From a bacterium (GTDB taxonomy: Bacteria > Electryoneota > RPQS01), in the NCBI GenBank assembly GCA_018812265.1, contig JAHJDG010000009.1, positions 5,042-69,041 of the forward strand: a stretch of 64,000 bases of DNA, given 5' to 3'. Made by a program: the position numbers and the translations under genes. Shown piece by piece: positions 12,592 through 53,656 of this stretch; within the stretch, counting starts at the first letter, position 1, and each line of letters starts with the position of its first letter. Below the pieces are notes generated by a model. It had not been told where the DNA came from. It did no database searches and saw only the letters and a list, made by a program, of their open reading frames with translations.

Positions 12592-13671
12592 TCAACCACT
12601 GTGGCGGATCAGCAGGATGTCTCCGTCCTTGACCGGGTACTCTTTGCCTTCGAGCCGCAACAGGCCTTTTGCTTTACAGTGTGAATATCCGCCTTCGCGG
12701 GTGAAATCATCGAAGTGCACGACCTCGGCCCGGATGAAGCCGCGCGCCAAGTCGGTATGGACTGCGGCGGCGGCATCTAGAGCCGTTTCACCGTTTCGCA
12801 GCGGCCAGGCCCGGTTCTCCTTGTCGTTGGTGGTCAAGAACGTTATCAAGTCCATCATGCCGAAGCTCGCCTTCAGGACTCGCTCGCGGGCGAGCTCGGT
12901 CACTCCGATGTCTTCCATGAACACGGCTCGCGCCTCCGGTTCGAGACGCGCGATCTCACCTTCCAGATTTGCCGAAAGGGCGATGGCCGTGATTTGATGG
13001 GGATTGAGCTTGCTATGAAGATCGGCAAGGCTCGCTTCGGCCTCTGGCAGTGCGTTTTCGGCGGCGTTGATCACAGCCAGCGCGGGCTTCTCCGAGAGGA
13101 ATTGGAATCCGCGCAGTCGCTTCTTCTCGAACGGATCCAGAACCATTTTCCGCAGCGGCGTACCGGCCGCGAGTTGTTCGTTCGCCCGCTGCAACAGGCC
13201 CACTTCGAGTTGATCCTCGGTCGTCAGCACCTTGACTTTGCGTTGTCGCTCCAACCGTTCGAGTCGCTTCTCGAGGATAATGAGATCGGACAGGATCAGT
13301 TCATCCTGCACGGCCAGCACGTCGCGCAGCGGATCGAGCGGCTCAGAGATTTCATCGGCTCCGAAGGCGCGCGCGACGATGAGCAGCGCGTCGGTGTATT
13401 TGACGCCGCCATCGAGCGCGGCGGTGAACCAGTCGGATTTGGCCGCGCCCGCATCGAAGGCGGGAGCATCCACGTACTCGACGGTCACGCAGGTTCGCTT
13501 GTGCGAGCCGGTGATGTCGGCCACCTTGTCCACGCGCTCATCGGGGACGTGAGTCACACCCTGTTGCACTTCGTGTTTGAAGGTGGCGGCGGGATCCGGT
13601 TCGGTTCCGGTGAGCAGGTGGAAGGTGGTGGTCTTACCCGACCGCGACTTTCCGATGAGGCCGATTTTCAT
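12592..13671 (-). CDS. ychF: Ribosome-associated ATPase YchF/OLA1 family (divergent G1 loop) with a C-terminal TGS/DUF933 domain.
   Basis: P-loop GKSRSGKTT. C-terminus ITFLTTNDKENRAWPLRNGETALDAAAAVHTDLARGFIRAEVVHFDDF...VKDGDIL, matching the YchF C-domain. Confidence 0.75.
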   Translation of the reverse strand: MKIGLIGKSRSGKTTTFHLLTGTEPDPAATFKHEVQQGVTHVPDERVDKVADITGSHKRTCVTVEYVDAPAFDAGAAKSDWFTAALDGGVKYTDALLIVARAFGADEISEPLDPLRDVLAVQDELILSDLIILEKRLERLERQRKVKVLTTEDQLEVGLLQRANEQLAAGTPLRKMVLDPFEKKRLRGFQFLSEKPALAVINAAENALPEAEASLADLHSKLNPHQITAIALSANLEGEIARLEPEARAVFMEDIGVTELARERVLKASFGMMDLITFLTTNDKENRAWPLRNGETALDAAAAVHTDLARGFIRAEVVHFDDFTREGGYSHCKAKGLLRLEGKEYPVKDGDILLIRHSG

Positions 13672-14064
13672 TGAGGTAGTAACGGAAAATGTTTTTTGAC
13701 CAAACGAACTTCGTTACCTAATAAAAATACTGAAATTCTGAAACGCTGAAAACCTAGCTATTTCGGGGAATTGAGCCATAGGGCGGGGAGAATTCAGGAG
13801 CAAGGGGAGCAGGCGGGAATAGTAGTCTATTTGAGACAAGATATGTTGAGGAGGCGAGAAAGTCAAGGAAAATTGAGAATACGTTCAAATGGCGGTTGGA
13901 TCGCTGTTTTGGGGGAATTGGCATTGGAGATAGTAAAGGAAGATGTTCTGAAGAGAGGCGATGAGGGAAATCCAAAATCCGAAGCAACACCCTTCTTGTA
14001 TTCCCCCCAAAACGAAGATTTGGGGGAAAGGAATGCATCAGTAGTCATCCGTCTGTAAACAGGG

Positions 14065-14160
14065 AGAGAAGCGCACTGCCGTGCGGCACTACAGCAAGGG
14101 GGAGCGCATATCCATGCGGTGCTACAAAGATTAAGGCCAGGCGAGCGCCCGGATCGGCGG
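14065..14160. repeat. Repeat cluster A: two units of a degenerate ~28-nt family, plus a ~100-nt segment homologous to 15800..15880.
   Basis: GCGCACTGCCGTGCGGCACTACAGCAAGG and GCGCATATCCATGCGGTGCTACAAAGATT, compared with GCGCACGCAGTGCAGCCCTACAAAGG and GCGCATATCCATGCGGCGCTACGAAGATT in cluster B. Confidence 0.7.
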
Positions 14161-14222
14161 TCTCAGGGGGATGTTGGGCCGGAGGCCCGACCCAGGGGAG
14201 AGAAAGATCTCAACACAGGCGG

Positions 14223-15680
14223 CTATTTCAACAATACCATTTTCCGCGCTTGAGAAAATCCTTCGCTTTGAAGAAGGTACAGATAGACTCCCGAAGCCAG
14301 AGCGGAGCCGTCGAAGGAAAGCGTGTGAATGCCGGTGGGTTGAATACCGTCTGCAAGAGTTGCGATTTGTTCGCCCAGGAGATTGAAGACGGTTAGCCTG
14401 ACGTGCGCAGCCTTGGGAAGAGCATAGGAGATTCGTGTGGACGGATTAAAGGGATTGGGGAAGTTGGGATAGAGCATGTATTGGCTCGGCGCGCTTAGGC
14501 AGATCGGTTCGCTGTCCAGTTGATCGGGACCCGTCTTGACCAGATAAAAATCGCGGGAGCCAGCCCCGAACGACTCGGTGTATCCGGCCATGATATAGCC
14601 GCCATCAGAGGTCTGCTGAACGGACTGGGCTTCATCCCAGGTGTTCCCTCCAAAGGTGCGCGTCCACAACAAGCCCCCTTGACTGTTCGTCTTGACCAGA
14701 TAGAGATCATTCGAGGCTGCACTGAGAGAATAGGTGTATCCGGCTATGATATAGCCTGCGTCGGTAGTTTGCTGAACGGAATAGCCGTACTCCCAGCTAC
14801 TCCCGCCATACGTGCGCGTCCAGAGCGTGTCGCCGAGGCTATCCGTCTTCACGAGATAGAAATCGTAGAGGCCCGCGCCAAACGACTCGGCATATCCCGC
14901 CACGATATAACCTCGGTCGGTGGTCTGCAGAACGAAAAGGGCTTCATCCCGGCTCCCCCCTCCATAGGTGCGCGTCCATACCGTATCGCCGAGGCTGTTC
15001 GTCTTCACCAGATAGAGATCATAGTTGCCCGCGCCAAAGGAAAAGGTGGTTCCCGCCAGGACATAACCACCGTCGGCGGTCTGCCGAACGGACCACGCTC
15101 CATCCGAAGCGCTCCCGCCATAGGTGCGCGTCCAGAGCGTATCGCCTTGACTATTCGTCTTCACCAGATAGACGTCGCTCCGGCCTGCACCGAAAGAGTC
15201 GGTCCATCCCGCCACGATGTAGCCGCCGTCGGAGGTTCGCTGAACGGAGTAGGCGTAATCATTGTCGGTTCCCCCGTAGGTGCGCGTCCAGAGCGTATCG
15301 CCTTGACTGTTCGTCTTCACCAGATAGAAATCGGCAAGGCCCGCGCCACGGGAGTGAGTGTATCCGGCCACGATGTAGCCGCCGTCGGAGGTCTGCTGAA
15401 TGAAATAGGCCCAATCATCGTTGGTTCCCCCATAGGTGCGCGTCCAGAGGGTGTCGCCGAGGCTATTCGTCTTGACCAGATAGAAGTCATGGCCGCCCGC
15501 CCCGAAGGATCCCGTGACTCCCGCCACGATGAAGCCACCGTCGGAGGTCTGCTGGATGGAGTAGGCCCAATCGTAGCCGCTCCCGCCAAAGGTATGTGTC
15601 CAGAGGGTGTCGGGATTGGGCTGGGCACCAGCCGTAACAAGCAAGGACAGCATGAAAACGAGAACGGTGATTGTCTTCAT
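14223..15680 (-). CDS. Secreted beta-propeller repeat protein (10 x ~48-aa SBBP-like blades) with a T9SS (Por) C-terminal sorting domain.
   Basis: Signal peptide MKTITVLVFMLSLLVTAGAQP preceded by GGGGAGG. The start was moved in from 15842 because the upstream extension lies in the repeat cluster. Ten repeats of TLWTRTYGG..D.A.SVQQTSDGGYIVAG.T.SFGAG..D.YLVKTNS.GD. CTD YPNFPNPFNPSTRISYAL...GVYLYLLQ...KMVLLK. Confidence 0.8.
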   Translation of the reverse strand: MKTITVLVFMLSLLVTAGAQPNPDTLWTHTFGGSGYDWAYSIQQTSDGGFIVAGVTGSFGAGGHDFYLVKTNSLGDTLWTRTYGGTNDDWAYFIQQTSDGGYIVAGYTHSRGAGLADFYLVKTNSQGDTLWTRTYGGTDNDYAYSVQRTSDGGYIVAGWTDSFGAGRSDVYLVKTNSQGDTLWTRTYGGSASDGAWSVRQTADGGYVLAGTTFSFGAGNYDLYLVKTNSLGDTVWTRTYGGGSRDEALFVLQTTDRGYIVAGYAESFGAGLYDFYLVKTDSLGDTLWTRTYGGSSWEYGYSVQQTTDAGYIIAGYTYSLSAASNDLYLVKTNSQGGLLWTRTFGGNTWDEAQSVQQTSDGGYIMAGYTESFGAGSRDFYLVKTGPDQLDSEPICLSAPSQYMLYPNFPNPFNPSTRISYALPKAAHVRLTVFNLLGEQIATLADGIQPTGIHTLSFDGSALASGVYLYLLQSEGFSQARKMVLLK

Positions 15681-15744
15681 GTCAGAACCTCCCCAATTGG
15701 TTAATTCCAATGTACGCACGAAATCCGCGATTGTCAACGGCGTA

Positions 15745-16175
15745 GGCGCGATGAATCGGGCCCCTACAACAACACACTGCCGTGTGGAACTACGAACGGA
15801 TAGAAGCGCACGCAGTGCAGCCCTACAAAGGCGCATATCCATGCGGCGCTACGAAGATTCGGGCTCGGCGGGCAGACGGGCACGATAAATCGGCCCCTAC
15901 AATAACACACTGCTGTGTGAAACTACGGATTCGCAGAGGCGCTCCCCCCCCTGCCCCCCCGTAAACGGAGGGGGGAAAGAATAGCCCGTTCCACGTGGAA
16001 CGGGCCGAATCCTGCACAGGAGAGGTTTGTTGCGGCTCACGCGTCGCTTCGCTCCCCCCTTGATCCCCCCATAGAATGGGGGGAGACAAGAAAAAGCACG
16101 ATGCAATCGGCTCCCGCAAGCATATCCATGCGGCGCTACCCCCCCCTGCCCCCCCGTAAACGGAGGGGGGAATAA
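15745..16175. repeat. Repeat cluster B: at least 6 degenerate ~28-nt units, a 46-bp direct repeat pair, a 22-bp perfect palindrome, and two identical 33-nt poly-C/G hairpin elements.
   Basis: 15750-15795 matches 15883-15928 at ~89% identity. CCCCCCCCTGCCCCCCCGTAAACGGAGGGGGGAA is identical at 15944-15976 and 16139-16171. GCCCGTTCCACGTGGAACGGGC lies at 15981-16002. TCCCCCC-ATAGAAT-GGGGGGA lies at ~16064-16084. Confidence 0.75.
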
Positions 16176-16179
16176 ATCA

Positions 16180-16653
16180 CTATTGGCAGCAGTTGGCGAG
16201 GCGGACGAAGTCCTCTTCAATCGTCTGGACGTGCGTGTCCAAAGCTGAGGGAGCACCACCGTAGCAGATTTCCTTCAGCTTCTTGCAGTTGCGCACCAAA
16301 TCCTTGGCGGCACGGCGATACTGCTTGTAGTTCATGCCATCGCAGCAGGGCTTGGCCTTCAGGACGTCACGGGCGGCGGCATACAAAGCGGCGGAAGACT
16401 CACGCACATAGGAAAACTCGCTGCTCTTGCGGGCCTCCATCACGGGAATCAGTTTGCCGTGGAACTGTTGAAGAGACGGCGGAGCGCAGTCGGGCATGTA
16501 GTAGGCGCTGGTGTAGTCATAGGCCGCCTTCGGAGTCTCGCACGAAGCCTTGCTCTTGCCGCAGGTACGCGCGCACGACTTGGCGCAGCCTTCTCCGGCC
16601 AATGACACCGACACGGCCAGTAGAACGATCAGAGAAACCAGAAAAGATTTCAT
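16180..16653 (-). CDS. Small secreted cysteine-rich protein (11 Cys in a ~137-aa mature chain). Function unknown.
   Basis: Signal peptide MKSFLVSLIVLLAVSVSLAGEG. C-x3-C-x3-C-x6-C cluster, two CC pairs and a C-terminal NCCQ. Confidence 0.6.
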   Translation of the reverse strand: MKSFLVSLIVLLAVSVSLAGEGCAKSCARTCGKSKASCETPKAAYDYTSAYYMPDCAPPSLQQFHGKLIPVMEARKSSEFSYVRESSAALYAAARDVLKAKPCCDGMNYKQYRRAAKDLVRNCKKLKEICYGGAPSALDTHVQTIEEDFVRLANCCQ

Positions 16654-16732
16654 GGGATCAACCCCTGTTGGATTTTTTGCAAGTTGGGCCTAATATAGCA
16701 CTTCGAGAAAAGAAACGCAAGCAGCATCAGCC

Positions 16733-17779
16733 CTATTCCGTTGGATGCTGCAAGACTTGATCCTTTTCCGGGACCGGTTGAGCATCAGCGGATTCGGGAG
16801 ATTCTCCGTTCCGGAGAGCCGTACGAAGAGCCGTAACGGCGACTTCGCACATGGCCGGATCAGGCTCTTGAGTGGTGATTTTCTGGAGCCATAGACCGGG
16901 TTGGATTGCCACTTTAACCAGCCGATTTTCGGTATGTTTGGCTGAGAACTTTAATATTTCATATGAAATCCCGGCGACCAGCGGGACCAGCGGCAAATGG
17001 ACGGCGAAGCGGGCCAAGACGCTCGGATAGTCCCCCCACACGGCGGTCACGATGCTGTCCACGATGGCGAAGAAGATGATGGCCGAGAGAGCAACGATCA
17101 GGAGGAAGCTGGTGCCGCAGCGGGGATGGAAACGGGTGTGTTTGAGGACCCGGTCGGCAGACAGTTCATCGCCCTTCTCGAAGGCGAAGATGGTCTTGTG
17201 CTCGGAACCGTGGTATTGAAAGACCCGGTGAATGTCCTTCCAGAAGGAGATCGCCCACATGTAGCCGAGGAGGATTAGGACCCGTACGGCCCCGGCCACG
17301 ATGTTGAGTCCGATCTGACCGGCTGCCGAGAGTTCGCTGCCATGGCTGCCGACGGCGGTCCGCCCCACCCACAGAGGGAAGTATAGAAACAGAGCCAGAG
17401 CGATAACGGTGGCCAGCAACATCGTTCCGGCGAGGGTCAGGCGATCTTTGGCTTTGGATTTCGGCTTGGCGGCTTCCTCTTCCGGCGCGGCCTGTTCGGC
17501 CGACCAGTTGAGGGCTCCGATGCCAATCTTCAGCGACTCGACCAGTCCGACGGCTCCCCGAATGACAGGCTGGCCGATCCATTTCTTGCGCTTGGCGAGA
17601 GGAGTGTATGGAAAAGTGCGGACGGCGATCTCGCCATTGGGTTTGCGGACGGCCACGGCTACGCGGTGGGGACTGCGCATCATGACGCCCTCGATTACCG
17701 CTTGCCCGCCCATAGCCAGTTCGGTGGACAGATCGGCGGCGGACTCGGATTCTATGCGGGGGTCTCGATCAGTACTCAC
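16733..17779 (-). CDS. DUF1385 (YqhQ-like) integral membrane protein.
   Basis: GGQAVIEGVMMRSP and the FQYHGSEHK signature, with multiple TM helices. Confidence 0.75.
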   Translation of the reverse strand: MSTDRDPRIESESAADLSTELAMGGQAVIEGVMMRSPHRVAVAVRKPNGEIAVRTFPYTPLAKRKKWIGQPVIRGAVGLVESLKIGIGALNWSAEQAAPEEEAAKPKSKAKDRLTLAGTMLLATVIALALFLYFPLWVGRTAVGSHGSELSAAGQIGLNIVAGAVRVLILLGYMWAISFWKDIHRVFQYHGSEHKTIFAFEKGDELSADRVLKHTRFHPRCGTSFLLIVALSAIIFFAIVDSIVTAVWGDYPSVLARFAVHLPLVPLVAGISYEILKFSAKHTENRLVKVAIQPGLWLQKITTQEPDPAMCEVAVTALRTALRNGESPESADAQPVPEKDQVLQHPTE

Positions 17780-30490: not shown

Positions 30491-33400
30491 ATGCACATGA
30501 GAAGAACCATCAGCATAACCGTCTTTGTGGTGATCTGTCTGACGCTTGTGGCCCTGGTCGGCTGGAGTCAAGGTCCGGAGGATTGGGAGTACTACAAGGG
30601 CAGTACGCTCAATCGCGCCAGAAATACGATGAGCGGAAACCTCGTTCGAACGGTGTTCTACAACTACGGTCTGACGGGGAATATCGGGGAGATCTCGGGC
30701 GAGTGGCCGATCGGTACGGGCAACGAATATGTGGGGGACGTCTCGCCGCTGGTGGGGATTGAATTTGTTCATCCTTCGGGCGACACTTTGCGGTCGGTTC
30801 TAACCTCCGACGGGCCGCGCGGGAATCCCGACGGACCTCCAGGCGGCGGAACCTTCTGGGGATTCGAACCTCTACCGGGTTTTGCGGCACTGCCCGCGAT
30901 CGGCGAGGATCCGAAGGTGGCAATGTCGAATCAGCCGCTCACCTGGCCGGACTTCTGGCCCGACAAATACGTCAATGATCCCAACGATCCGACCTGGCGC
31001 ATCCAGAGCGATCGGGGCTGGCGAGGATCGTGGAATGGGTATTTCGGCAAGAACGTGACGAACGCCGATCAAGAGACCTACTTCGTAACGGACGATCAGG
31101 CGGACATGGAGTGGTTCGAGCGATCCGACTCGCTGGGCAACGTCTATCGCTATTATCCCAATCCCGAAGATTCAGCTCGTCGGGGACTGGGGATTCGAGT
31201 GTCGGTGCGCGGTCTGCAGTGGGCGCATTTTCTGGCGCAAGACTGCATTTTCTGGCTCTATGATATTACCAACATCAGTTCCTACACCTACAACAAGGTC
31301 GCGTTCGGGATGGTAGTGGGAACGCTTTCGGGCGGGCGGCAGGATTCGCGGGACGATCTGGCCTATTTCGACCTCGGCTACGATATCACCTACAGTTGGG
31401 ACAGCGACGATCAGGGTTCTGCCGGCTGGATTCCGGTGCGTCCGGGCGAGATCAACGTCGGATACGTGGGCTATGCCTTTTTGGAATCACCCGGCAATCC
31501 CTATGACGGGATTGACAACGACGGCGACGTCCCCAGTCCAAGCTACGTATTGGAACCGTCCGATTTCCAGGCGCGATCCTACAACGTGGGAAATCGCTTG
31601 TTCCTGATCAATTACAGCACCTTCGAGCGGATTGACACGACTATGCCGACTCAGGGGATTTCGTTTACCGCCTACGGGCGCCAGTTTAACGTATATCCCG
31701 GCCAGATGTTGGAGGAAAACGGACGGAACAATATTGACGACAATCTGAACGGACTGATTGACGAACGGATCGAAGACCATCTCGGACTGACCTACAAGGA
31801 TTACTTCAACAATCGCGGACTCGATAATCTCCTGATTGACGAGGCGCGCGATGACGGCATTGACAACGACGGCGACTGGGATCCGCTGACCGACGACGTG
31901 GGAGCGGACGGCGTGCCGGCTACGGGAGACTACGGGGAGGGCGACGGCCTTCCGACGAACGGCGAGCCGCATTTCGACCGGACGGACGTGGACGAATCGG
32001 ATCAGATCGGACTGACGTCCTTCGAGTATTTCAGTCCTCCGGGAGCGGTTCGGATGCGGGACGACGCAGCGCTCTGGACCCGGATGGAACCGGGTCACTT
32101 CGACGTCACCCCCAACACTCCCGAAGACGGCGATTTCATCTACGGTTCGGGCTACTTCCCGCTTCGTCCGGGGCAGACGGAACGATTTTCGATGGCCTTG
32201 TTGTACGGCGAGGATTTCGCGGATCTGACCGAGAACAAAATCACCGTCCAGCAGGTTTACGACGAGAATTACAATTTCGCCCGCCCGCCCGAGAAGCCCA
32301 CCGCCTGGGTGGTACCGGGCGACGGCCGGGTAACCCTTTACTGGGATGACGTTGCCGAGTCGTCACTTGATCCCGTTTCCGGCTACGACTTTGAAGGGTA
32401 CAAGATCTACCGCGCCACCGATCCGAACTTCCGCGAAGTGTTTTCGATCACCGACGGATTCGGGCGGCGCGTATTCCACCGACCCATCGCCCAGTTCGAT
32501 CTGATCAACGAATATGAGGGTTTCTTCCCGATCATTCGCAACGCCGTGATCGTGTATCTTGGCGCTAATACGGGCCTCCAGCACTCGTGGACGGACACCA
32601 CGGTGGAGAACGGTCAAACGTATTACTACGCGGTGGTCGCCTACGACCACGGGGATATCGAGAAGGCGATTCTCCCGGCGGAGAACAATAAGACCATCGT
32701 GGTGGACGAGGCGGGCAACGTCACTCTGGACAAGAATACGCTCCTCGTCACTCCCCGCGCTCCGGCGGCCGGATATCAGGAACCGCGCCTTTCTTCGGTT
32801 GCACACGTCGGCGGTTTCTCGACCGGGATGATCGGTGTTGAGGCGTTGGATCCGCGGGAGATTCAAGACGACCGGCAATACGACTTCCGGTTCTCGGCGC
32901 AGCCATCAGACACGCCCAGTGTGCCGTCCCACGTCGAATATCACGTGCTTCGTCAGTCTGACGGACAGACGGACACGTTGATCGGCGGCAAGCTCCTCGT
33001 GCCGGAACCGAATCTTCTTCCACAGGCGGATCCATTCGCGGCCTACTATGACTCGCTGTTCAATCTTCCACCCGGCACGTATGATCCCGCCCTCTACTTT
33101 ACCGTGGCGGGAACACAGGTTTTTGACGGGCAGCGGGCGTACATGCTGCTCCCACGGGACGTCAAGCTGATCCCACAGGCCAGCGGATGGGCGGATACAA
33201 GCCGGCACTTGTACAGCTACCGCTTCACCAAGGCGTCCTTGTGGTATCAGGGCTATCAGATCGTGACCGGCGTAGCCTATCCCTCCGACTACCACGTGGA
33301 ATGGTATGAAGGCGTGGTGGATACATCCACGTACCTCAATTTCTACAACCTGTTGATTTATCCGGCGCGACCGGTGAACTTCCGCGTGAAGAACCTGAAC

Positions 33401-33976
33401 CGGAATGAGTATATCGAATTCGGATTCATCGAGCAGGCGGCCACAACGAATGGAGTCGTTGATCCGGGCGAGGTGATTCTCTTTCTCGAAAACGACACTC
33501 TGGTGACGTGGGCGCTTGAATTTCGCCGGACCGTGGGGGGAAGTGACAGCACGCGACCGGATAACGGCGATGACCTGCAGCTTCGATTGTATCAGCCGTA
33601 TTCCGACGCGGACGTCTATCGGTATACGACCCGCGCCGCGCGCGTGGATCCGGGGGCGGTGAATCTCGATCGCATCCGGGTGTACCCCAATCCCTACGTA
33701 GCGGTATCGGCGCAGGAGCCGGCCAACCGGTACGGCGAGGGCCGCGGCGAACGTCGGATTTCCTTCATCCATTTGCCGGATCGCTGCACCATTCGCATTT
33801 ATACGGTGCGCGGTGACCTTGTGGAAACCATTGAACACCTGACGACCATTGACGACGGAATGGAATCGTGGGACTTGCGGAGTCGCGACGGATTAAACGT
33901 TGCCTATGGAGTCTATCTCTACCACATTGATTCGCCCTACGGCGAGAAGATCGGACGCTTTGCGGTGATCAAATGA
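30491..33976 (+). CDS. Large secreted protein (1161 aa) with thrombospondin-type-3-like Ca-binding DNDGD repeats and a Por-type C-terminal domain. It sits where a SusD would be expected.
   Basis: Signal peptide. GIDNDGDVPSP and DDGIDNDGDWDPLTDDVGADGVPATGDYGEGDGLPTNGEPHFDRTDVDESDQ. C-terminus VYPNPY...TIRIYTVRGDLV...GVYLYHI...GRFAVIK. 52 nt downstream of the receptor. Confidence 0.6.
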   Translation: MHMRRTISITVFVVICLTLVALVGWSQGPEDWEYYKGSTLNRARNTMSGNLVRTVFYNYGLTGNIGEISGEWPIGTGNEYVGDVSPLVGIEFVHPSGDTLRSVLTSDGPRGNPDGPPGGGTFWGFEPLPGFAALPAIGEDPKVAMSNQPLTWPDFWPDKYVNDPNDPTWRIQSDRGWRGSWNGYFGKNVTNADQETYFVTDDQADMEWFERSDSLGNVYRYYPNPEDSARRGLGIRVSVRGLQWAHFLAQDCIFWLYDITNISSYTYNKVAFGMVVGTLSGGRQDSRDDLAYFDLGYDITYSWDSDDQGSAGWIPVRPGEINVGYVGYAFLESPGNPYDGIDNDGDVPSPSYVLEPSDFQARSYNVGNRLFLINYSTFERIDTTMPTQGISFTAYGRQFNVYPGQMLEENGRNNIDDNLNGLIDERIEDHLGLTYKDYFNNRGLDNLLIDEARDDGIDNDGDWDPLTDDVGADGVPATGDYGEGDGLPTNGEPHFDRTDVDESDQIGLTSFEYFSPPGAVRMRDDAALWTRMEPGHFDVTPNTPEDGDFIYGSGYFPLRPGQTERFSMALLYGEDFADLTENKITVQQVYDENYNFARPPEKPTAWVVPGDGRVTLYWDDVAESSLDPVSGYDFEGYKIYRATDPNFREVFSITDGFGRRVFHRPIAQFDLINEYEGFFPIIRNAVIVYLGANTGLQHSWTDTTVENGQTYYYAVVAYDHGDIEKAILPAENNKTIVVDEAGNVTLDKNTLLVTPRAPAAGYQEPRLSSVAHVGGFSTGMIGVEALDPREIQDDRQYDFRFSAQPSDTPSVPSHVEYHVLRQSDGQTDTLIGGKLLVPEPNLLPQADPFAAYYDSLFNLPPGTYDPALYFTVAGTQVFDGQRAYMLLPRDVKLIPQASGWADTSRHLYSYRFTKASLWYQGYQIVTGVAYPSDYHVEWYEGVVDTSTYLNFYNLLIYPARPVNFRVKNLNRNEYIEFGFIEQAATTNGVVDPGEVILFLENDTLVTWALEFRRTVGGSDSTRPDNGDDLQLRLYQPYSDADVYRYTTRAARVDPGAVNLDRIRVYPNPYVAVSAQEPANRYGEGRGERRISFIHLPDRCTIRIYTVRGDLVETIEHLTTIDDGMESWDLRSRDGLNVAYGVYLYHIDSPYGEKIGRFAVIK

Positions 33977-47141: not shown

Positions 47142-48378
47142 ACTGCTCAGCCGACGATTGCTCGCACTTCTTACCATCGGTGTGGGCATTCTTTGGATCG
47201 GATGCACACGACACGACGGTGTCGTGCGACTTCAGATCTGGCACCAACTCCGTCCGGAAGATCGCGCGCTTCTTGCGAAGGTCGTTCGCGAGTACGAAAC
47301 GATTCATGACAGCCTGGCGGTTGAAGTCATTTATAAAGAGACCGAGGAATTGCGCTCGTCCTATCAATCGGCGGCGCTGGCAGGTTTGGGTCCCTGCCTG
47401 ATTCACGGGCCGGCCGATCAGGTGGGACCGCTGGCAACGATGGGTTTCATTCGTCCATTGGAGGACATCCTGCCTGCACCGCGACTGGCCGAGCTTGATT
47501 CGGCGGCGCTTATTGTCTATCGCGGTCACCTTTTTCAGGCTCCCGATCGAGTCGGAAATCATCTTGCCTTGGTCTACAACAAGGACATCCTGCCGGAACC
47601 GCCTCGCAACACGGACGAACTGATCGAAATGGGCCGGTCTGCAACTCTCGACAAGAACAGCGACGGCAAGATGGATCAGTGGGGAATCGTCTGGAATTTT
47701 ACGGAGCCGTACTTTTTCGTCCCGTGGCTCTCGGGGTTCGGTGGCTGGGTTTTCGACGATAGCGGCGAGCCCAGCCTGAATACACGCTCCGCCATTGAAG
47801 CCTTTCGATTCGTGAAATCGCTGCGCGATGAGTATCGCATCATCCCGCCCGACTGCGACTACGCGATGGCCGACGCACTCTTCAAAGAAGGCCGCGCCGC
47901 CATGATCGTCAACGGTCCGTGGTCATGGCCGGGATACGAACAGGCGGGCGTGAACTACGAGCTGGCGCGTATCCCGAGCGTTACGGCTACCGGGTTGTGG
48001 CCGGCTCCGATGGTCTCGCCGCTCGGCTATTCACTCAACGTCAACGCACGAGGTCGCGAACTGGAAGAAGCGACGCGCCTGCTCGAGTACCTGATTTCCG
48101 ATTCCGTGCAGAAACGATTCGTTATCGAGATCGGCGTCATTCCCTCCAGCATCAGACTCCGAGGCGACTCGGCCTATCTCGCCCGACCGCACATGGCCGA
48201 GAGTCTGGCGCAACTCGAAGTCGGCCGCATGATGCCGGTGCAACCGGAATTACGCGCGGTGTGGGACGCCATGCGCCCCGCCTATCAGTCCGTGTTAGGT
48301 GGAGCCTTGTCACCGGAGCAGGCCGCCCAGCAGATGCAGGCGGACGCCATGCAGAAAATCCGGGAGATGAATGAGTAG
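47134..48378 (+). CDS. Maltose/maltodextrin-type ABC substrate-binding lipoprotein (MalE-like).
   Basis: Start at MSRLLSRRLLALLTIGVGILWIGC (lipobox). Periplasmic-binding-protein fold. Positioned directly before the two permeases. Confidence 0.75.
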   Translation: MSRLLSRRLLALLTIGVGILWIGCTRHDGVVRLQIWHQLRPEDRALLAKVVREYETIHDSLAVEVIYKETEELRSSYQSAALAGLGPCLIHGPADQVGPLATMGFIRPLEDILPAPRLAELDSAALIVYRGHLFQAPDRVGNHLALVYNKDILPEPPRNTDELIEMGRSATLDKNSDGKMDQWGIVWNFTEPYFFVPWLSGFGGWVFDDSGEPSLNTRSAIEAFRFVKSLRDEYRIIPPDCDYAMADALFKEGRAAMIVNGPWSWPGYEQAGVNYELARIPSVTATGLWPAPMVSPLGYSLNVNARGRELEEATRLLEYLISDSVQKRFVIEIGVIPSSIRLRGDSAYLARPHMAESLAQLEVGRMMPVQPELRAVWDAMRPAYQSVLGGALSPEQAAQQMQADAMQKIREMNE

Positions 48379-49252
48379 CGACAGACGGTTCATCGTTTTT
48401 CTCATCGCGCCGGCGGCGGTCGTCATCGCCGTTGTGGTCGTATATCCGTTTCTGTACAATTTCCTGCTGTCGCTCTCGAATATGAGTCTCTTGCACATTC
48501 GGGATTGGGAGATCATCGGACTGCGACAATATGAGAAGGTACTGTCGGAACCGCGTTTCTATCACATTCTGTGGAAAACGCTGCTGTGGACGGTTATCAA
48601 CGTTACCTTCCACGTGACTATTGGAGTTACGCTTGCGCTCATTCTTCACGAGAAGGTGCCGGGGAAGCGACTGTTTCGGACGCTGTTGATTCTCCCGTGG
48701 GCGATTCCGCCGGTGGTAACGGCGCTCACGTGGCGCGGCATGTTTCACTATGAATACGGCGCGGTCAATCTGATTCTGAGCAAGGTGTTCCTGCAAACAC
48801 CGATTCAGTGGCTGAATGATCCGGTCGGTACTTTTGCGGCGTGTATCATCACCAACGTCTGGCTCGGTTTTCCGTTCATGATGGTGGTTGCGCTCGGCGG
48901 CTTGCAGAGCATTCCGCACGAACTCTACGAAGCGGCCATTATTGACGGGGCCGGACCGTGGCAACGATTCCGGAAGGTTACGCTGCCGATGCTCGTTCCC
49001 GTCCTGACTCCGGCGGTGATTCTCGGCTTCGTGTGGACGTTCAACAAGGTGGACATCGTCTGGCTGGTCTCCAACGGCGGTGAGCCCGCCGATCAGACGC
49101 ACATTCTGGTTTCCTATGTTTATCGCGCGGCGTTTAATCTGTATCGCTATGGCTACGCCGCCGCGTTCTCCGTTATCATCTTCCTGATTCTGGTTGCATT
49201 CTCGGTGGTCTTCATGAGGCACCAGCACCGAAGACAACTCACGGCGACGTAA
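48371..49252 (+). CDS. Sugar ABC transporter permease (MalF/UgpA-like).
   Basis: Six TM helices. Permease fold with a conserved EAA-region equivalent. Confidence 0.85.
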   Translation: MSSDRRFIVFLIAPAAVVIAVVVVYPFLYNFLLSLSNMSLLHIRDWEIIGLRQYEKVLSEPRFYHILWKTLLWTVINVTFHVTIGVTLALILHEKVPGKRLFRTLLILPWAIPPVVTALTWRGMFHYEYGAVNLILSKVFLQTPIQWLNDPVGTFAACIITNVWLGFPFMMVVALGGLQSIPHELYEAAIIDGAGPWQRFRKVTLPMLVPVLTPAVILGFVWTFNKVDIVWLVSNGGEPADQTHILVSYVYRAAFNLYRYGYAAAFSVIIFLILVAFSVVFMRHQHRRQLTAT

Positions 49253-49276
49253 CTTGTCCAAATCCTCCCGAAACCG

Positions 49277-50095
49277 ATGTTGAAGAAGACTGTCCTGCTT
49301 ATCGTGATGCTGGCTTTCGTCGTCATCACGCTCTATCCGATTCTCACCGTGGTCACGGTTTCGCTGCGACCCGGCGACCGACTGCTCTCGACGTCACTCT
49401 CCATCATTCCCGAAGATGCGACGATCGAAAGCTACATCGCGTTGTTCCGCGACAAGCCGTTCGCTCGCTGGATGTTCAACAGCACGATCGTGGCCCTCGC
49501 CGTTACGATTCTCGGAACCTCCCTTGCTTCTACGGCGGGCTACGCCTTTTCTCGTTTTCGATTTCCCGGTCATCGGGCGGGTATGATGATGCTGCTCATT
49601 ACACAGATGTTCCCGGCGACGATGCTGCTTTTACCGCTCTTCGTGATGCTGGCCAAGTTGCATCTCATCAACTCGTATCTGGGTCTCATTGTGATCTACT
49701 CGGCGACGGCTTTGCCGTTCACCGTGTGGCAGATGAAGGGCTACTACGACACGATCCCGCGCGAACTCGAAGAGGCCGCGCTGATGGACGGTGCCGGCCG
49801 CTGGCGAGTTTTCTATTCCATCATCCTCCCCCTGGCGGCACCGGCTCTGGTCATTACCGCTCTGTTTTCTTTTCTCACCGCATGGAGCGAATACGTTGTG
49901 GCGGCGCAGGTGCTTCTGACCGAGGATCTGTACACGCTCCCCGTCGGGCTCAAGCAGTTTCAGTCGAGCATGACCACCGAGTGGGGATTGTACTCGGCCG
50001 GTTCGATTATCATCAGCATTCCGGTGGTGGCTCTCTTTCTCTACCTCTCCCGGTGGCTGGTATCGGGTCTGACTCTCGGCAGCGTGAAGGGATAG
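49277..50095 (+). CDS. Sugar ABC transporter permease (MalG/UgpE-like).
   Basis: EAA motif EAALMDGAGRWRVF. Six TM helices. Confidence 0.85.
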   Translation: MLKKTVLLIVMLAFVVITLYPILTVVTVSLRPGDRLLSTSLSIIPEDATIESYIALFRDKPFARWMFNSTIVALAVTILGTSLASTAGYAFSRFRFPGHRAGMMMLLITQMFPATMLLLPLFVMLAKLHLINSYLGLIVIYSATALPFTVWQMKGYYDTIPRELEEAALMDGAGRWRVFYSIILPLAAPALVITALFSFLTAWSEYVVAAQVLLTEDLYTLPVGLKQFQSSMTTEWGLYSAGSIIISIPVVALFLYLSRWLVSGLTLGSVKG

Positions 50096-50197
50096 GAATT
50101 TTTCGAGTGTGCGATTTTGCCTTGATTTCGGTGAGATAGGGTCTTATCATAAAAAGGTGAGTTTCCATTGCGAGGACAACCATCCAAGGATAGACGT

Positions 50198-53100: not shown

Positions 53101-53656
53101 CGGCGTCGGCGGGATTCAATTGAATCGCTGGACGGGCAGCGCGTGGGAGTATCCGGGTCCGGGAACTCCACCCGCCACCAGCTACAACGGATGGTCGGGC
53201 AATCCATTTACCGAGGTACGCATCCCGTGGGACGCCATCGGCAATCCGTCCGGGATCGCACTGGCGGTCAGCATCACGCAAGAGGACAATCTCATTACCG
53301 ATCGGGTATTCCCGCCCTCCAATCCGACGGGCAACTCGATTACCATTTCCCAGATGTATCGTTTGTACCAACCGTACATCTCCGGCAACATGCCGTTGTC
53401 GGGCGTTCGGCCGAAGTACATTCTCAGCGGTGACCTCGGTACACCGGCCAATCTCGTGGCCTATCCGATCAGCGGACACGTGGGACTCAGGTGGTCGGCG
53501 GTTGTGGGAGCGGTTACCTATGTGATTCATCGCGCGGAATCCGCAGCCGGTCCCTTCAACGTGTTGGATGAAGTCTCGGCCACACAGTATGAGGACAACA
53601 GCGTAGCGGGAGGCCTGCGGTACTTCTATCGAGTGACCGCCAAATCGGGTATTTGA
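50198..53656 (+). CDS. Large secreted GH57/GH119-clan glycoside-hydrolase-like protein with a C-terminal Fn3-like domain.
   Basis: Start reset to MNRLLNTLAVALTVFLAVKASFA (ATG at 50198; the ORF track begins at an upstream TTG). RVAWIPERVW (GH57 region-III-like with Glu). C-terminal ...LRWSAVVGAVTYVIHRAESAAGPF...YFYRVTAKSGI, homologous to the C-terminus of 24388..27405. Confidence 0.55.
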   Translation: MNRLLNTLAVALTVFLAVKASFAFEWRLNDWVIKDEIGEIEAGDFDLCNGFFREDSDRTYLKITTRSPLTQDVDVWVRTTDKLGQQLSLRRDAPSTRATVNAFRGVFEIEWIRPSDWQGTATLSIQTVRSGTMEIVDEAAVDMNPRSSLDNETGNCAFVHHGNQGLTYTDVFRGSGGSPNNGFDEILELHQNLATPGNFHMSGTLISAAEWYDPSFNQWLRDGISQGWAAMLTSVYAQHIMPFVQDNMNNWAVSTEQDLISTIYGYDARVAWIPERVWLANGVYPDAGIVDPWLGDNWTQHGVDAVILDDWPHVSGNSDRKIHWMNNGSGITLRVIPIDGEFTGNCHYNPGAAIAHIQGTGRYGIVVYGTDWEAAAEMADFSCPDCLENYSQVVTWVHDNYPAVGAWKLDAALANSDFNGWGINVGNGTYGLIGGTDGYGGSNNSWYTHWAGTASHSDFHNPAWNYGHAWWQTYLKVMGSPSNNLSETAWYVMMTNLHETGWHDYMGGPISGWQHRYSSHIKNANVYAEAAHWAAGEYAIPVNAYFADPDSDGVSELMIHNDRVMAVFEPTGGRAQWIFAKTPSSDNYSIVGSCNTYWAETEGDYDESGSNNHQAAFAEVSPHYRNDTYDMFVEELTDTTAKIRLVHNEVTKRISVKLGNPYFKAEYEVGSQTCYLRHGFSPDLLDLIWSADMYRIWPPDAAYMGLRNPNSGATGACILANGGANHQLEFSGTLLRGDELRGYDQFAFLLYTGPTSAPDGSGRIAELETLKTMNLDRYGPRLDAQAIFLNASTVEVSFNESVEQTSAQNISHWTLQGFSHTYSVTAAVRQSDWRRVRLTINPSLIGGDAGQIAASDVYDLNGNVVDPNYDTASLIVPTGLTPHTIVIDGVKDFDRANECLFAGTDTLFLTWDMSALYVGYFPKDLSTGDFFIHIDVNQQTGMGAPTGSWGRESFANPFRIEYQLAIEGGVGGIQLNRWTGSAWEYPGPGTPPATSYNGWSGNPFTEVRIPWDAIGNPSGIALAVSITQEDNLITDRVFPPSNPTGNSITISQMYRLYQPYISGNMPLSGVRPKYILSGDLGTPANLVAYPISGHVGLRWSAVVGAVTYVIHRAESAAGPFNVLDEVSATQYEDNSVAGGLRYFYRVTAKSGI

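What the first reader, a model, noticed from the sequence alone, without database searches (positions are those of the whole stretch)
14065..16175. T9SS beta-propeller gene bracketed by a degenerate ~28-nt direct-repeat family plus identical poly-C/poly-G hairpin modules
At least eight copies of a unit approximating GCGCA(C/T)(A/T)(T/G)CC(G/A)TGCGG(C/T)(G/A)CTAC(A/G)AAG lie in two clusters, immediately 3' (14065-14160) and 5' (15745-16145) of the propeller gene. A ~100-nt segment is shared between the clusters. A 46-bp pair is 89% identical. The 33-nt element C8-TG-C7-GTAAAC-GGAGGGGGG occurs twice, exactly identical and 195 bp apart. A 22-bp perfect palindrome GCCCGTTCCACGTGGAACGGGC is also present. 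Nothing in the coding annotation explains this. Possibilities are REP/BIME-like extragenic repeats, recombination substrates that let the propeller cassette be duplicated or excised, or an array of regulator binding sites. The C7/C8 tracts in the promoter region could mediate slipped-strand phase variation of this surface protein.
Basis: seen in the sequence. Interest (0 to 1): 0.7.

Follow-up and report, generated by a model that had tools for sequence, protein, structure and literature searches.

The report
REP element cluster around a propeller gene
The short repeats on both sides of this secreted beta-propeller gene are ordinary small selfish DNA hairpins (GTAG-tagged REP elements and a second family of C/G-tract hairpins) that also litter related genomes, not a switch built for this gene.

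Summary
Nine ~22-nt units lie in the two intergenic regions flanking the T9SS propeller gene (14223-15680, minus strand). There are also two exactly identical C8-TG-C7-GTAAAC-GGAGGGGGG modules 195 bp apart and a 22-bp perfect palindrome.

On the minus strand every unit reads GTAG + 3 nt + a 5-bp/4-nt hairpin, which is the signature of GTAG-tagged REPs. In three loci the same REP variants flank RAYT (REP-associated tyrosine transposase) genes. Stem changes are compensatory.

The poly-C/poly-G modules belong to a second dispersed family (38 three-tract copies in the fetched DNA, tracts of 5-9). The palindrome is the intrinsic terminator of the upstream 157-aa gene and is conserved in an orthologous locus.

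Phase variation is not supported: the tracts lie more than 200 nt upstream of the predicted promoter or inside the neighbour's 3' UTR. Only one of five T9SS cargo genes in the window carries these repeats.

Verdict: a mosaic REP cluster, a new member of a known kind. The head-to-tail arrays and the C/G modules are mildly unusual. Side observation: RAYT genes of this clade carry a REP palindrome inside their own reading frame.

The parts
14071..14092 (-). REP unit u1. The minus strand reads GTAGTGCCGCACGGCAGTGCGC (GTAG + 3 nt + 5-bp stem / 4-nt loop), the 'CTGCC' variant.
   Evidence: It is identical to the commonest variant in the genome scan (74 of 151 matches) and to the REPs flanking the RAYT genes in L010 and L115.
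14104..14125 (-). REP unit u2, 'ATATCC' variant. The plus strand reads GCGCATATCCATGCGGTGCTAC.
   Evidence: It differs by one base from the REPs flanking the RAYT gene in L110.
15745..15767 (-). REP unit u3, of a second GTAG subfamily. The minus strand reads GTAGGGGCCCGATTCATCGCGCC. Together with u4 it forms a 50-nt head-to-tail composite.
   Evidence: The composite is 92% identical to L110 3026-3075. The same subfamily is seen in L030.
15772..15793 (-). REP unit u4, 'CACAC' stem variant. The plus strand reads ACACACTGCCGTGTGGAACTAC, with a compensatory stem.
15806..15826 (-). REP unit u5, degenerate. The plus strand reads GCGCACGCAGTGCAGCCCTAC, with a 4-bp stem and 3-nt loop.
   Evidence: (family D8).
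15831..15852 (-). REP unit u6. The plus strand reads GCGCATATCCATGCGGCGCTAC, identical to the RAYT-flanking REP of L110.
15879..15900 (-). REP unit u7, same subfamily as u3. Together with u8 it forms the second copy of the 50-nt composite.
   Evidence: 88% identity to 15745-15794.
15905..15926 (-). REP unit u8. The plus strand reads ACACACTGCTGTGTGAAACTAC.
16118..16139 (-). REP unit u9. The plus strand reads AAGCATATCCATGCGGCGCTAC. It abuts the C8 tract of a C/G module.
   Evidence: A REP directly abutting a C-tract module is also seen in L016, L025 and L042.
16139..16172 (.). C/G-tract hairpin module, copy A (C8-TG-C7-GTAAAC-GGAGGGGGG-AA). It starts 6 nt after the stop codon of the 157-aa gene, inside that gene's 3' UTR.
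16052..16090 (.). C/G-tract hairpin module, divergent copy (CTCCCCCC-TTGAT-CCCCCC-ATAGAAT-GGGGGG-AGA).
   Evidence: (-9.6 kcal/mol as DNA).
15944..15977 (.). C/G-tract hairpin module, copy B. It is exactly identical to copy A over 34 nt and lies just downstream of the terminator on the transcribed strand.
15976..16006 (-). Intrinsic terminator of the 157-aa gene: the 22-bp perfect palindrome (15984-16005) plus the tail ATTCTTT.
   Evidence: 10 pairs, 7 G-C. (-11 kcal/mol, z = -4.9). A homologous terminator (GAAGCCCGTTCC...GGGCTTTTTTC) lies just downstream of the stop codon of the orthologous gene in L124.
14003..14026 (.). A further C/G hairpin (CCCCCC-AAAACGAAGATTT-GGGGG) in the 3' intergenic region.
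   Evidence: The segment 13989-14036 has 5 similar copies in related loci.
14167..14205 (.). Another small repeated hairpin segment (GGGGGATGTTGGGCCGGAGGCCCGACCCAGGGG) just downstream of the propeller stop codon.
   Evidence: 4 similar copies in related loci, for example L022 and L016.
14223..15680 (-). The T9SS beta-propeller gene (485 aa) with tandem 156-nt blade repeats.
   Evidence: (family D1).
15709..15737 (-). Promoter-like site for the propeller gene (TTGACA, 17-nt spacer, TACATT).
   Evidence: This is a consensus match only.
16180..16653 (-). Upstream 157-aa gene with no Pfam hit. Its 3' UTR holds module A, u9 and the divergent module before the terminator.

Best explanation
The two intergenic regions flanking the propeller gene are a mosaic of small, non-autonomous palindromic repeats that build up in non-coding DNA.

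(1) REP units. Nine units are GTAG-tagged REPs of at least three subfamilies. On the transcribed (minus) strand each reads GTAG, a 3-nt spacer, then a 5-bp stem with a 4-nt loop. By analogy with characterised REP/RAYT systems, such units are recognised as single-stranded DNA hairpins and are cut and joined by a RAYT (TnpA-REP, a HUH/Y1 transposase). The GTAG tetranucleotide is part of the recognition and cleavage signal. Local head-to-tail arrays arise by repeated insertion next to existing copies and by segmental duplication. That accounts for the ~100-nt segment shared by the two clusters, the 50-nt composite present twice, and the 34-nt exact duplicate.

(2) C/G modules. The poly-C/poly-G modules belong to a second dispersed hairpin family: C5-9, a short T-rich spacer, C5-7, a variable and often self-complementary loop, G5-7, and usually AGA. 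Copies often lie 0-30 nt from a REP.

(3) Palindrome. The 22-bp palindrome is the intrinsic terminator of the upstream 157-aa gene. Repeats have been inserted between that gene's stop codon and its terminator, and between the terminator and the propeller promoter.

Shown versus inferred. The element anatomy, the dispersal, the RAYT association in related genomes, and the terminator homology are shown. RAYT-driven mobility in this particular genome, and any effect of the hairpins on mRNA, are inferred. The repeats are not specific to the propeller gene or to T9SS cargo genes.
For: Anatomy.
- All 9 units end in CTAC on the plus strand, and 5 of them have perfect 5-bp stems with 4-nt loops.

Dispersal.
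- These held 151 exact matches in about 18 MAGs, with unrelated flanking sequences.
- The closest syntenic relative, STB_160, has 54 units in 109 kb of fetched DNA.

Stem conservation.
- Among 39 distinct variants, 173 of 195 stem cells are Watson-Crick pairs.
- Double compensatory changes occur at four of the five stem pairs. Controls with the pairing partner shifted give 5-77 paired cells.

RAYT association.
- Three loci hold RAYT genes flanked by the same REP variants as in the window: L010, L110 and L115.
- They match NCBIfam NF047646 'REP-associated tyrosine transposase' at E = 3e-18, 1.5e-20 and 5e-11, and also Pfam Y1_Tnp.
- The HUH motif and the catalytic Tyr are present in L010 and L110. 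L115 is frameshifted at the HUH motif and is probably a pseudogene.
- Several homologues are named 'REP element-mobilizing transposase RayT' by JGI.

Location and orientation.
- About 68% of units lie outside crude ORFs that cover 86% of the DNA.
- Between co-directional genes, the GTAG-first orientation on the sense strand outnumbers the opposite 68 to 17. The window shows the same orientation.
- Head-to-tail arrays are typical of STB_160: 23 adjacent pairs, mostly 7-8 nt apart.

C/G modules.
- There are 38 three-tract copies in 0.87 Mb.
- Loop ends extend the stem by a mean of 1.68 bp, against 0.36 bp in shuffles (maximum 0.76 in 1000 shuffles). Twenty-six of 38 copies are followed by AGA.

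Terminator..

No specificity for T9SS cargo. Five Por_Secre_tail genes lie in the window and only one is flanked by repeats.

Definitions. The definition of GTAG REPs and REPtrons is taken from PMC3733652.
Against: - No RAYT gene lies in the 64-kb window. The rest of this genome could not be read, so both the RAYT and a high genome-wide copy number are shown only for related MAGs.
- Within the window the units occur only at this locus, which is a lower density than in classic REP-rich genomes.
- The 5-bp stems are at the short end of what is described for REPs, and the single hairpins are not thermodynamically exceptional (z = -0.6 to -1.4).
- Head-to-tail arrangement is described as rare for REPs (PMC3733652).
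- Nothing known explains the C/G modules mechanistically: no transposase has been linked to them.
- The gene calls behind the location and orientation statistics are crude.
Confidence: 0.85

Rival explanations
1. The C7/C8 homopolymer tracts act as a contingency switch. Slipped-strand mispairing would change tract length and turn the propeller surface protein on or off.
For: Long C and G runs are mutable in general. Tract lengths differ between copies of the module family (C5-C9), so slippage or an equivalent process does occur over evolutionary time.
Against: - Position: module A lies between the neighbour's stop codon and its terminator. Module B lies downstream of that terminator and about 207 nt upstream of the predicted -35. 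Neither is in a promoter spacer, a 5' UTR near the RBS, or a reading frame.
- The tracts are the stems of a hairpin family found at many unrelated loci.
- Tract lengths are identical in the window, L001 and the part held in L002. Those assemblies are the same population, so this test has no power.
Confidence: 0.03
2. The same-orientation REP arrays on both sides make the propeller gene a mobile or recombining cassette. It would be excised or duplicated either by homologous recombination between the ~100-nt direct repeats or by a RAYT acting in trans, as on an IS200/IS605-like element.
For: - The geometry [GTAG-hairpin]n - gene - [GTAG-hairpin]n on the sense strand is the same as around the RAYT genes in L010, L110 and L115.
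- A ~100-nt segment is shared by the two flanks.
- In the syntenic locus of STB_160, the space between the 157-aa gene and ychF holds IS1595 and P63C genes instead of a propeller gene. The site is therefore plastic.
Against: - The flanking repeats are only about 71% identical, with gaps.
- The sense-strand orientation is the general rule for REPs between co-directional genes (68 versus 17), so the geometry arises by default.
- No second copy of the cassette and no empty site was found.
- The near-identical strain L001 keeps the arrangement.
- Propeller paralogues in L058, L071, L035 and L023 are not bracketed in the same way.
Confidence: 0.08
3. The units work mainly as RNA or protein-binding elements. 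They could be 3'-UTR stabilisers or attenuators, a small RNA, or an array of operator sites that tunes expression of the propeller gene and its neighbours. This does not exclude a REP origin.
For: - The units are oriented with transcription.
- G-T pairs are tolerated in stems (7 wobble cells).
- REPs elsewhere are reported to affect mRNA decay and termination (PMC3733652; bioRxiv 10.64898/2026.03.23.713779, abstract).
- A weak Rfam hit to RF02278 covers 15976-16088 on the minus strand (29 bits, E = 0.004).
Against: - The Rfam hit is far below the gathering score (50 bits), and that stretch is explained by the terminator plus a C/G module.
- The units are generic, with unrelated neighbours at more than 100 sites.
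- The number, order and orientation of the modules differ between orthologous loci. That argues against a conserved regulatory design.
Confidence: 0.12
4. The region is a degenerate CRISPR array or another spacer-containing array.
For: It holds short partially palindromic direct repeats in one orientation.
Against: - Gaps between units are 4-52 nt (plus one of 191 nt) and irregular, and they contain other repeats rather than unique spacers.
- No cas genes lie in the window.
- The same unit is scattered singly across genomes.
Confidence: 0.01

Closest known systems
GTAG-tagged REPs and REPtrons (Nunvar et al. 2010, PMC2817692; Di Nocera et al. 2013, PMC3733652)
   Same: - A short GC-rich hairpin with an unpaired GTAG at one end.
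- Sub-variants with complementary stem changes.
- Several families within one genome.
- A mostly intergenic location between co-directional genes.
- RAYT genes flanked by the cognate REP, with a REP TAG supplying a stop codon (L010).
   Different: - The stem is only 5 bp, with a 3-nt spacer after GTAG.
- Units are arranged head-to-tail in arrays, which is reported as rare or absent in most genomes.
- The REPs flanking the RAYT genes are in direct orientation, with an inverted copy inside the ORF.
- The hosts are uncultured MAGs deposited under the labels KSB1, Calditrichaeota, 'bacterium' or 'Alphaproteobacteria'.
Thermomicrobium roseum GTAG-23 elements (PMC3733652, sections read)
   Same: The REPs are clustered in blocks at few loci. 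They are associated with a separate family of small GC-rich palindromes (CCGSSCC n3-4 GGSSCGG) that also occurs independently many times.
   Different: Here the partner family has three homopolymer tracts (C, C, G) and a variable loop. REPs lie next to the modules in either orientation rather than inside them.
E. coli BIMEs and Pseudomonas REPINs (PMC2817692; PMC3116915)
   Same: They are composite intergenic structures built from REPs, and RAYT is the presumed mobilising enzyme.
   Different: BIMEs and REPINs are built from REPs in alternating or inverted orientation. All nine units in the window are in one orientation. Inverted (HH) dimers 88-151 nt apart are seen only in other MAGs such as CSMAG_2917.
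IS200/IS605 elements (own knowledge of the family)
   Same: Subterminal hairpins at both ends lie on the same strand, and a Y1 HUH transposase acts on single-stranded DNA. The REPtrons in L010 and L110 have this direct-end geometry.
   Different: The window holds no transposase gene. The units are far more numerous than the ends of an IS element would be.
Homopolymer-tract contingency loci of Neisseria and Haemophilus (own knowledge)
   Same: Runs of 7-8 C or G lie near a surface-protein gene.
   Different: The tracts are not in the promoter spacer or the ORF. They form hairpin stems of a dispersed repeat family. No length polymorphism was observed, although the test had no power.

Membership tests
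GTAG-tagged REP | Short (20-40 bp) imperfect palindrome able to form a stem-loop | tested here: met
   The units are 21-23 nt. Five of nine have perfect 5-bp stems with 4-nt loops. They fold as predicted.
GTAG-tagged REP | Conserved unpaired GTAG tetranucleotide at one end | tested here: met
   All nine units carry CTAC on the plus strand, which is GTAG on the minus strand. The 151 matches in other genomes carry it because the search pattern required CTAC.
GTAG-tagged REP | High copy number, dispersed in the genome, with unrelated flanks | tested here: inconclusive
   Met in related MAGs: at least 120 stretches with the scan truncated, and 54 units in 109 kb of STB_160. In this organism only 64 kb could be read, and it holds a single cluster.
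GTAG-tagged REP | Predominantly extragenic, between co-directional or convergent genes | tested here: met
   About 68% of units lie outside crude ORFs that cover 86% of the DNA. Context counts were 85 units between co-directional genes, 13 between convergent genes and 21 between divergent genes. Gene calls are crude.
GTAG-tagged REP | Sub-variants with complementary (compensatory) stem changes | tested here: met
   173 of 195 stem cells are Watson-Crick. Double changes occur at 4 of 5 pairs. Among exact-pattern hits, CAC..GTG occurs 119 times, CAT..ATG 31 times, the wobble combination once, and the C/A combination never.
REPtron (REP + RAYT) | A RAYT gene (HUH + Tyr, Y1 transposase) flanked by the cognate REP | tested here: inconclusive
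   Met in related MAGs. L010, L110 and L115 match NF047646 at E from 5e-11 to 1.5e-20 (scores 43-74 bits, below the 80-bit curated cut-off) and are flanked by the same 22-mers as in the window.
BIME | REPs in regularly alternating orientation with conserved linkers | tested here: not met
   All nine units are in one orientation, separated by irregular gaps of 4-52 nt plus one of 191 nt.
REPIN | Two REPs in inverted orientation forming a long hairpin | tested here: not met
   There is no inverted pair in the window. HH dimers occur only in other MAGs.
Phase-variable (contingency) locus | Tract located in the promoter spacer, 5' UTR or ORF of the regulated gene | tested here: not met
   The tracts lie at 15944-15975 and 16139-16170. 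The promoter-like site is 15737-15709, the ATG is at 15680, and the upstream gene's terminator lies between the two modules.
Phase-variable (contingency) locus | Tract-length polymorphism within a population or between strains | tested here: inconclusive
   Tracts are identical in the window, L001 and L002, but these are the same population (5 SNPs in 12 kb). Two metagenome scans found nothing.
Intrinsic terminator (the 22-bp palindrome) | GC-rich stem-loop followed by a T-rich tail, downstream of a stop codon on the transcribed strand | tested here: met
   Ten pairs, a 4-nt loop and the tail ATTCTTT. Folding z = -4.9. A homologous stem with a T5 tail lies just downstream of the orthologue's stop codon in L124.
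CRISPR array | Regularly spaced identical repeats separated by unique spacers, usually with cas genes | tested here: not met
   Gaps are irregular, there are no unique spacers, and no cas genes are present.

The most novel reading that the evidence does not exclude
Two readings are not excluded.

(a) The REP arrays put the propeller gene in the same geometry as the RAYT gene in this lineage's REPtrons: GTAG hairpins in direct orientation on both sides of the sense strand. REP - gene - REP units could then be passenger cassettes that a RAYT moves in trans by IS200/IS605-like single-strand 'peel and paste'. That would make REP systems vehicles for shuffling surface-protein genes.

(b) The three-tract C/C/G modules are an undescribed structured element. 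Their topology fits two alternative C:G helices, an intramolecular triplex, or (for G7-CA-G8) a G-quadruplex. They might serve as landing pads for REP insertion.

The probability given is for (a) or (b) being substantially right.
Probability: 0.1. Interest if true: 0.6.

Novelty: new member of a known kind. Interest (0 to 1): 0.3.

Why it matters
It settles an apparent oddity. The repeats need no gene-specific explanation, and the homopolymer tracts should not be annotated as a phase-variation switch.

It extends GTAG-tagged REP/RAYT systems to a set of uncultured MAGs deposited as KSB1, Calditrichaeota, 'bacterium' or (questionably) Alphaproteobacteria. In these genomes the REPs are unusually short and form head-to-tail arrays. 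They coexist with a second, uncharacterised family of C/G-tract hairpins.

For annotation and assembly, these elements explain contig breaks (L002 ends inside a module) and spurious small ORFs in such genomes.

The side observation could bear on how RAYTs are regulated or how REPs arise. RAYT genes of this clade carry a GTAG palindrome in frame, just after the HUH motif. In two homologues the 28-nt DNA is identical although it is read in different frames.

Tried and rejected
- Exact-protein look-ups for the propeller protein and YchF found nothing. The 157-aa protein gave only the same population (L001, L002).
- Two metagenome scans found nothing, so tract lengths could not be compared across strains. 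One used a 30-nt anchor from the end of the 157-aa gene, the other the 21-nt core of the C/G module.
- An Rfam search of 13400-16900 at a permissive threshold gave only sub-threshold hits, the best being RF02278 at 29 bits against a gathering score of 50. I reject a known RNA family.
- CRISPR was rejected on spacing and on the absence of cas genes.
- I looked for a RAYT in the window's own genome among homologues of the L110 RAYT. None of the 120 listed homologues carried the KKH27 locus-tag prefix of this organism, so this is unresolved.
- I tried to test whether C/G modules sit at gene 3' ends like terminators. The crude ORF calls gave no clear pattern.
- PADLOC models did not match the RAYT homologues that lie inside restriction-modification loci.
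- One protein alignment call failed on a frameshifted ORF in L115 and one script failed on a file name. Both were redone.


Full report
**1. What is in the sequence**

The gene between the two repeat clusters runs from 14223 to 15680 on the minus strand. It encodes 485 aa with DUF5122 propeller repeats and a Por_Secre_tail T9SS sorting domain. Its blades are tandem 156-nt repeats (family D1).
- Upstream on the same strand lies a 157-aa gene with no Pfam hit (16180-16653).
- Downstream lies ychF (12592-13671).

- The C8-TG-C7-GTAAAC-GGAGGGGGG element occurs exactly twice, at 15944 and 16139, against 0 expected.
- A third, diverged copy lies at 16052-16090.
- The 22-bp palindrome is at 15984-16005.
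- Pairwise alignments confirm a ~100-nt segment shared by the two clusters (14058-14158 versus 15795-15894, 78 of 110 columns). They also confirm a 50-nt pair at 88% identity (15745-15794 versus 15879-15927) and a 46-column pair at 93% around the two C/G modules.
- An independent assembly, L001 from GCA_018825465.1, has the same intergenic sequence. The features are therefore real.

**2. Anatomy of the units**

Read on the minus strand, which is the transcribed strand here, each unit is GTAG, three bases, then a 5-bp stem with a 4-nt loop. Examples are GTAG-CGC-CGCAT-GGAT-ATGCG-C and GTAG-TGC-CGCAC-GGCA-GTGCG-C.
- A scan for hairpin + NNN + CTAC finds five perfect units in this region and no convincing one elsewhere in the 64 kb.
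- Adding the degenerate units gives nine, all in the same orientation (part list).
- The stems differ between units in a compensatory way: CGCAT/ATGCG, CGCAC/GTGCG and CACAC/GTGTG.
- Two units (15745-15767 and 15879-15900) belong to a different GTAG subfamily (GTAGGGGCC(C)GATTYATCGYGCC). That subfamily is also seen in a large array in L030.

**3. Dispersal**

One scan of the species-representative genome collection used GCGCAYWKCCRTGCGGYRCTAC. By my estimate about four chance matches are expected in that collection.
- The fetched DNA holds 151 exact matches with unrelated flanks.
- They come from about 18 MAGs. Most belong to STB_160, CSMAG_2917, MEGAHIT-group-0.427, a 'Calditrichaeota' MAG, a 'KSB1' MAG, a Lac Pavin MAG and several MAGs deposited as 'uncultured Alphaproteobacteria'.
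- A looser search gives 201 units and 39 distinct variants.
- In those variants 173 of 195 stem cells are Watson-Crick and 7 are wobble. Double changes occur at four of five pairs. Controls with the pairing partner shifted pair in only 5-77 cells.
- Units are depleted in ORFs: about 32% fall inside crude ORFs that cover 86% of the DNA.
- Between co-directional genes they lie GTAG-first on the sense strand 68 times against 17. The window shows the same orientation.

**4. The transposase**

A phmmer search of all ORFs in the fetched loci picked out Y1 transposase genes.
- Three of them match NCBIfam NF047646 'REP-associated tyrosine transposase' (E = 3e-18, 1.5e-20 and 5e-11) and Pfam Y1_Tnp. 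They are L010 4422-4943, L110 6080-6643 and the frameshifted L115 5890-6420.
- The scores are below the curated cut-off (66, 74 and 43 bits against 80). The likely reason is that an insertion splits the domain.
- Each gene is flanked on both sides by the same 22-mers found in the window. L010 and L115 carry the CTGCC variant of unit u1. L110 carries the ATATCC variant of units u2, u6 and u9.
- Homologues are named 'REP element-mobilizing transposase RayT' by JGI.
- The features match the published definition of GTAG-tagged REPs and REPtrons (PMC3733652; PMC2817692).
- No RAYT lies in the window. For this organism the enzyme is inferred from relatives.

**5. The C/G-tract modules**

The build is C5-9, a 1-6-nt mostly T-rich spacer, C5-7, a 6-12-nt loop and G5-7.
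- I counted 38 three-tract copies.
- Twenty-six of them are followed by AGA.
- Loop ends extend the C:G stem by a mean of 1.68 bp, against 0.36 in shuffled loops (maximum 0.76 in 1000 shuffles).
- Tract lengths vary between copies.
- Modules often lie 0-30 nt from a REP, in either relative orientation. The module at 16139 abuts unit u9.
- They are therefore a second dispersed hairpin family. I found no transposase linked to them and do not know how they spread.
- Their three tracts allow two alternative C:G helices. Topologically they also allow an intramolecular triplex or, for G7-CA-G8, a G-quadruplex. This is speculation and was not tested.

Other pieces of the two intergenic regions also have similar copies in related loci: 13989-14036, 14167-14205 and the 50-nt composite at 15745-15794. 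Both regions are mosaics of small repeats.

**6. The palindrome and the layout**

On the minus strand the palindrome is a 10-bp stem with a 4-nt loop followed by ATTCTTT. It folds at -11 kcal/mol with z = -4.9.

STB_160 is the closest relative with the same gene order (157-aa gene, then ychF, then the T2SSE ATPase).
- The orthologous 157-aa gene there is followed, about 20 nt after its stop codon, by a homologous terminator (GAAGCCCGTTCC-GTTG-GAGCGGGCTT-TTTTC).
- That terminator is followed by several tandem C/G modules in the opposite orientation.
- IS1595 and P63C genes stand where the window has the propeller gene.

In the window the terminator lies 173 nt after the stop codon. The space between holds module A, unit u9 and the diverged module. 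Module B and six REP units then fill the space between the terminator and the promoter-like site at 15737-15709.

The number, order and orientation of the small repeats therefore differ between orthologous loci. That fits insertion and turnover, not a conserved regulatory design.

**7.

*Phase variation.*
- Neither C/G module lies in a promoter spacer, a leader or an ORF.
- The tracts are stems of a generic hairpin family.
- Lengths are identical in the window, L001 and the part of L002 that is held. However, L001 differs from the window by only 5 SNPs in 12 kb plus one 156-nt blade deletion, so this comparison has no power.
- Two metagenome scans found nothing.

*T9SS specificity.* Five genes in the window carry Por_Secre_tail (starting at 14223, 18215, 35068, 36607 and 55690). 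Only the propeller gene is flanked by these units.

*Cassette mobility.*
- The flanking arrays are in the same orientation, as around the RAYT genes, and the locus is plastic between relatives.
- However, the shared segment is only about 71% identical and the orientation is the default for this REP family. I found no second copy and no empty site.
- I keep this as a low-probability rival.

**8. Comparison with known systems and verdict**

The units work like GTAG-tagged REPs and pass the tests for that family that I could run. Two tests could be made only in related genomes: the RAYT gene and the high copy number.
- They are not BIMEs or REPINs, which need alternating or inverted units.
- They are not a CRISPR array.
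- The closest published parallel for the overall picture is Thermomicrobium roseum. Its GTAG-23 REPs cluster in blocks at few loci and are associated with a separate family of small GC-rich palindromes.
- Unusual points are the very short stem, the head-to-tail arrays (23 adjacent pairs in STB_160, mostly 7-8 nt apart) and the C/G module family.

This is a new member of a known kind, of modest interest.

**9. Side observation**

In L010, L110 and L115 a copy of the cognate REP also lies inside the RAYT reading frame, in frame and inverted relative to the flanking copies. It sits in the loop just after the HUH motif.
- In an alignment of 25 homologues that loop is hypervariable. By my reading about 20 of them carry peptides such as CRGTARRAPT, RGDRPVAPT or VGATGRSPL.
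- I predicted that these peptides are translations of GTAG...CTAC palindromes. The DNA confirmed it.
- L125 carries GTAGGGGCACGGCGCGCCGTGCCCCTAC inside a 40% GC gene.
- L127 and L128 carry the identical 28-mer GTAGGGGCGACCGGCCGGTCGCCCCTAC, read in two different frames. Conservation there is at the DNA level.
- In L127 the same 28-mer occurs five times in 6.5 kb.
- All three homologues that I looked up lie inside restriction-modification loci. PADLOC has no model for them.
- Text searches of three key papers did not turn up this feature. That is not an exhaustive search.

Noticed in passing
L010 4664-4685; L110 6349-6407; L115 6132-6152; L125 5272-5299; L127 3283-3310; L128 3266-3293: RAYT genes of this clade carry a GTAG-tagged REP palindrome inside their own reading frame, in the loop just after the HUH motif. 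In L127 and L128 the identical 28-mer GTAGGGGCGACCGGCCGGTCGCCCCTAC is read in two different frames (VGATGRSPL versus RGDRPVAPT). Conservation is therefore at the DNA level. By my reading about 20 of 25 aligned homologues show such loop peptides. I did not find this described in the three papers I searched.
   Followed up: partly
L125 and L126 5001-5597; L128 3001-3561; L127 3001-3540 and 4227-4811: All three RAYT homologues that I looked up lie inside restriction-modification loci. In L125, L126 and L128 the gene sits between hsdS and hsdR with overlapping start and stop codons. In L127 it lies next to an N6_N4 methylase and a ResIII helicase. There are no PADLOC matches.
   Followed up: partly
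window 15121-15276: The near-identical assembly L001 lacks exactly one 156-nt propeller blade (433 aa instead of 485 aa). Otherwise it differs by only 5 SNPs in 12 kb. This is either blade copy-number variation by recombination between tandem blades or an assembly collapse.
   Followed up: partly
L124 338-3243 (STB_160, JAQTRJ010000002.1): At the syntenic site between the 157-aa gene and ychF, this relative has several tandem C/G modules (about 420-585) followed by IS1595 transposase and P63C genes instead of the propeller gene. The site is a hotspot for insertions.
   Followed up: partly
L002 (SRR2544004 contig) end; L123 end: Short-read contigs carrying the 157-aa gene or its orthologue stop shortly after the gene. 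L002 stops inside a C/G module. This suggests that the repeats break assemblies.
   Followed up: no
window 13760-14060: A ~300-nt purine-rich stretch on the plus strand lies between the 3' REP cluster and the ychF promoter region. It has no convincing ORF: the 95-aa ORF at 13771-14058 has GC3 of 0.46 against about 0.7 for the genes, and it has no Pfam hit. No Rfam match lies in this stretch.
   Followed up: no
window 18215-60006: A large alpha-glucan/starch utilisation cluster. It includes GH31, GH57, GH13 alpha-amylase, glycogen-debranching (GDE_C), CBM20/25/48/53 domains, a TonB-dependent receptor, a PorV-like protein, an ABC sugar transporter and four further T9SS-sorted proteins. Two ORFs of about 1160 aa (30491-33976 and 50168-53656) have no Pfam hit.
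   Followed up: no
L122 1000-1850; L014 6826-7415: Two other Y1 transposase genes score above the RAYT NCBIfam cut-off. They are not flanked on both sides by GTAG REPs: one has ~135-nt direct repeats on both sides and the other has ~30-nt inverted repeats. Each has a single REP-like unit on one side.
   Followed up: no
L041 (CAZVXJ010000356.1) and other 'uncultured Alphaproteobacteria' MAGs: Several MAGs deposited as Alphaproteobacteria carry the same REP variants. L041 is 68% identical at the DNA level to window 47213-50093 over 2.9 kb. The taxonomic labels look doubtful.
   Followed up: no
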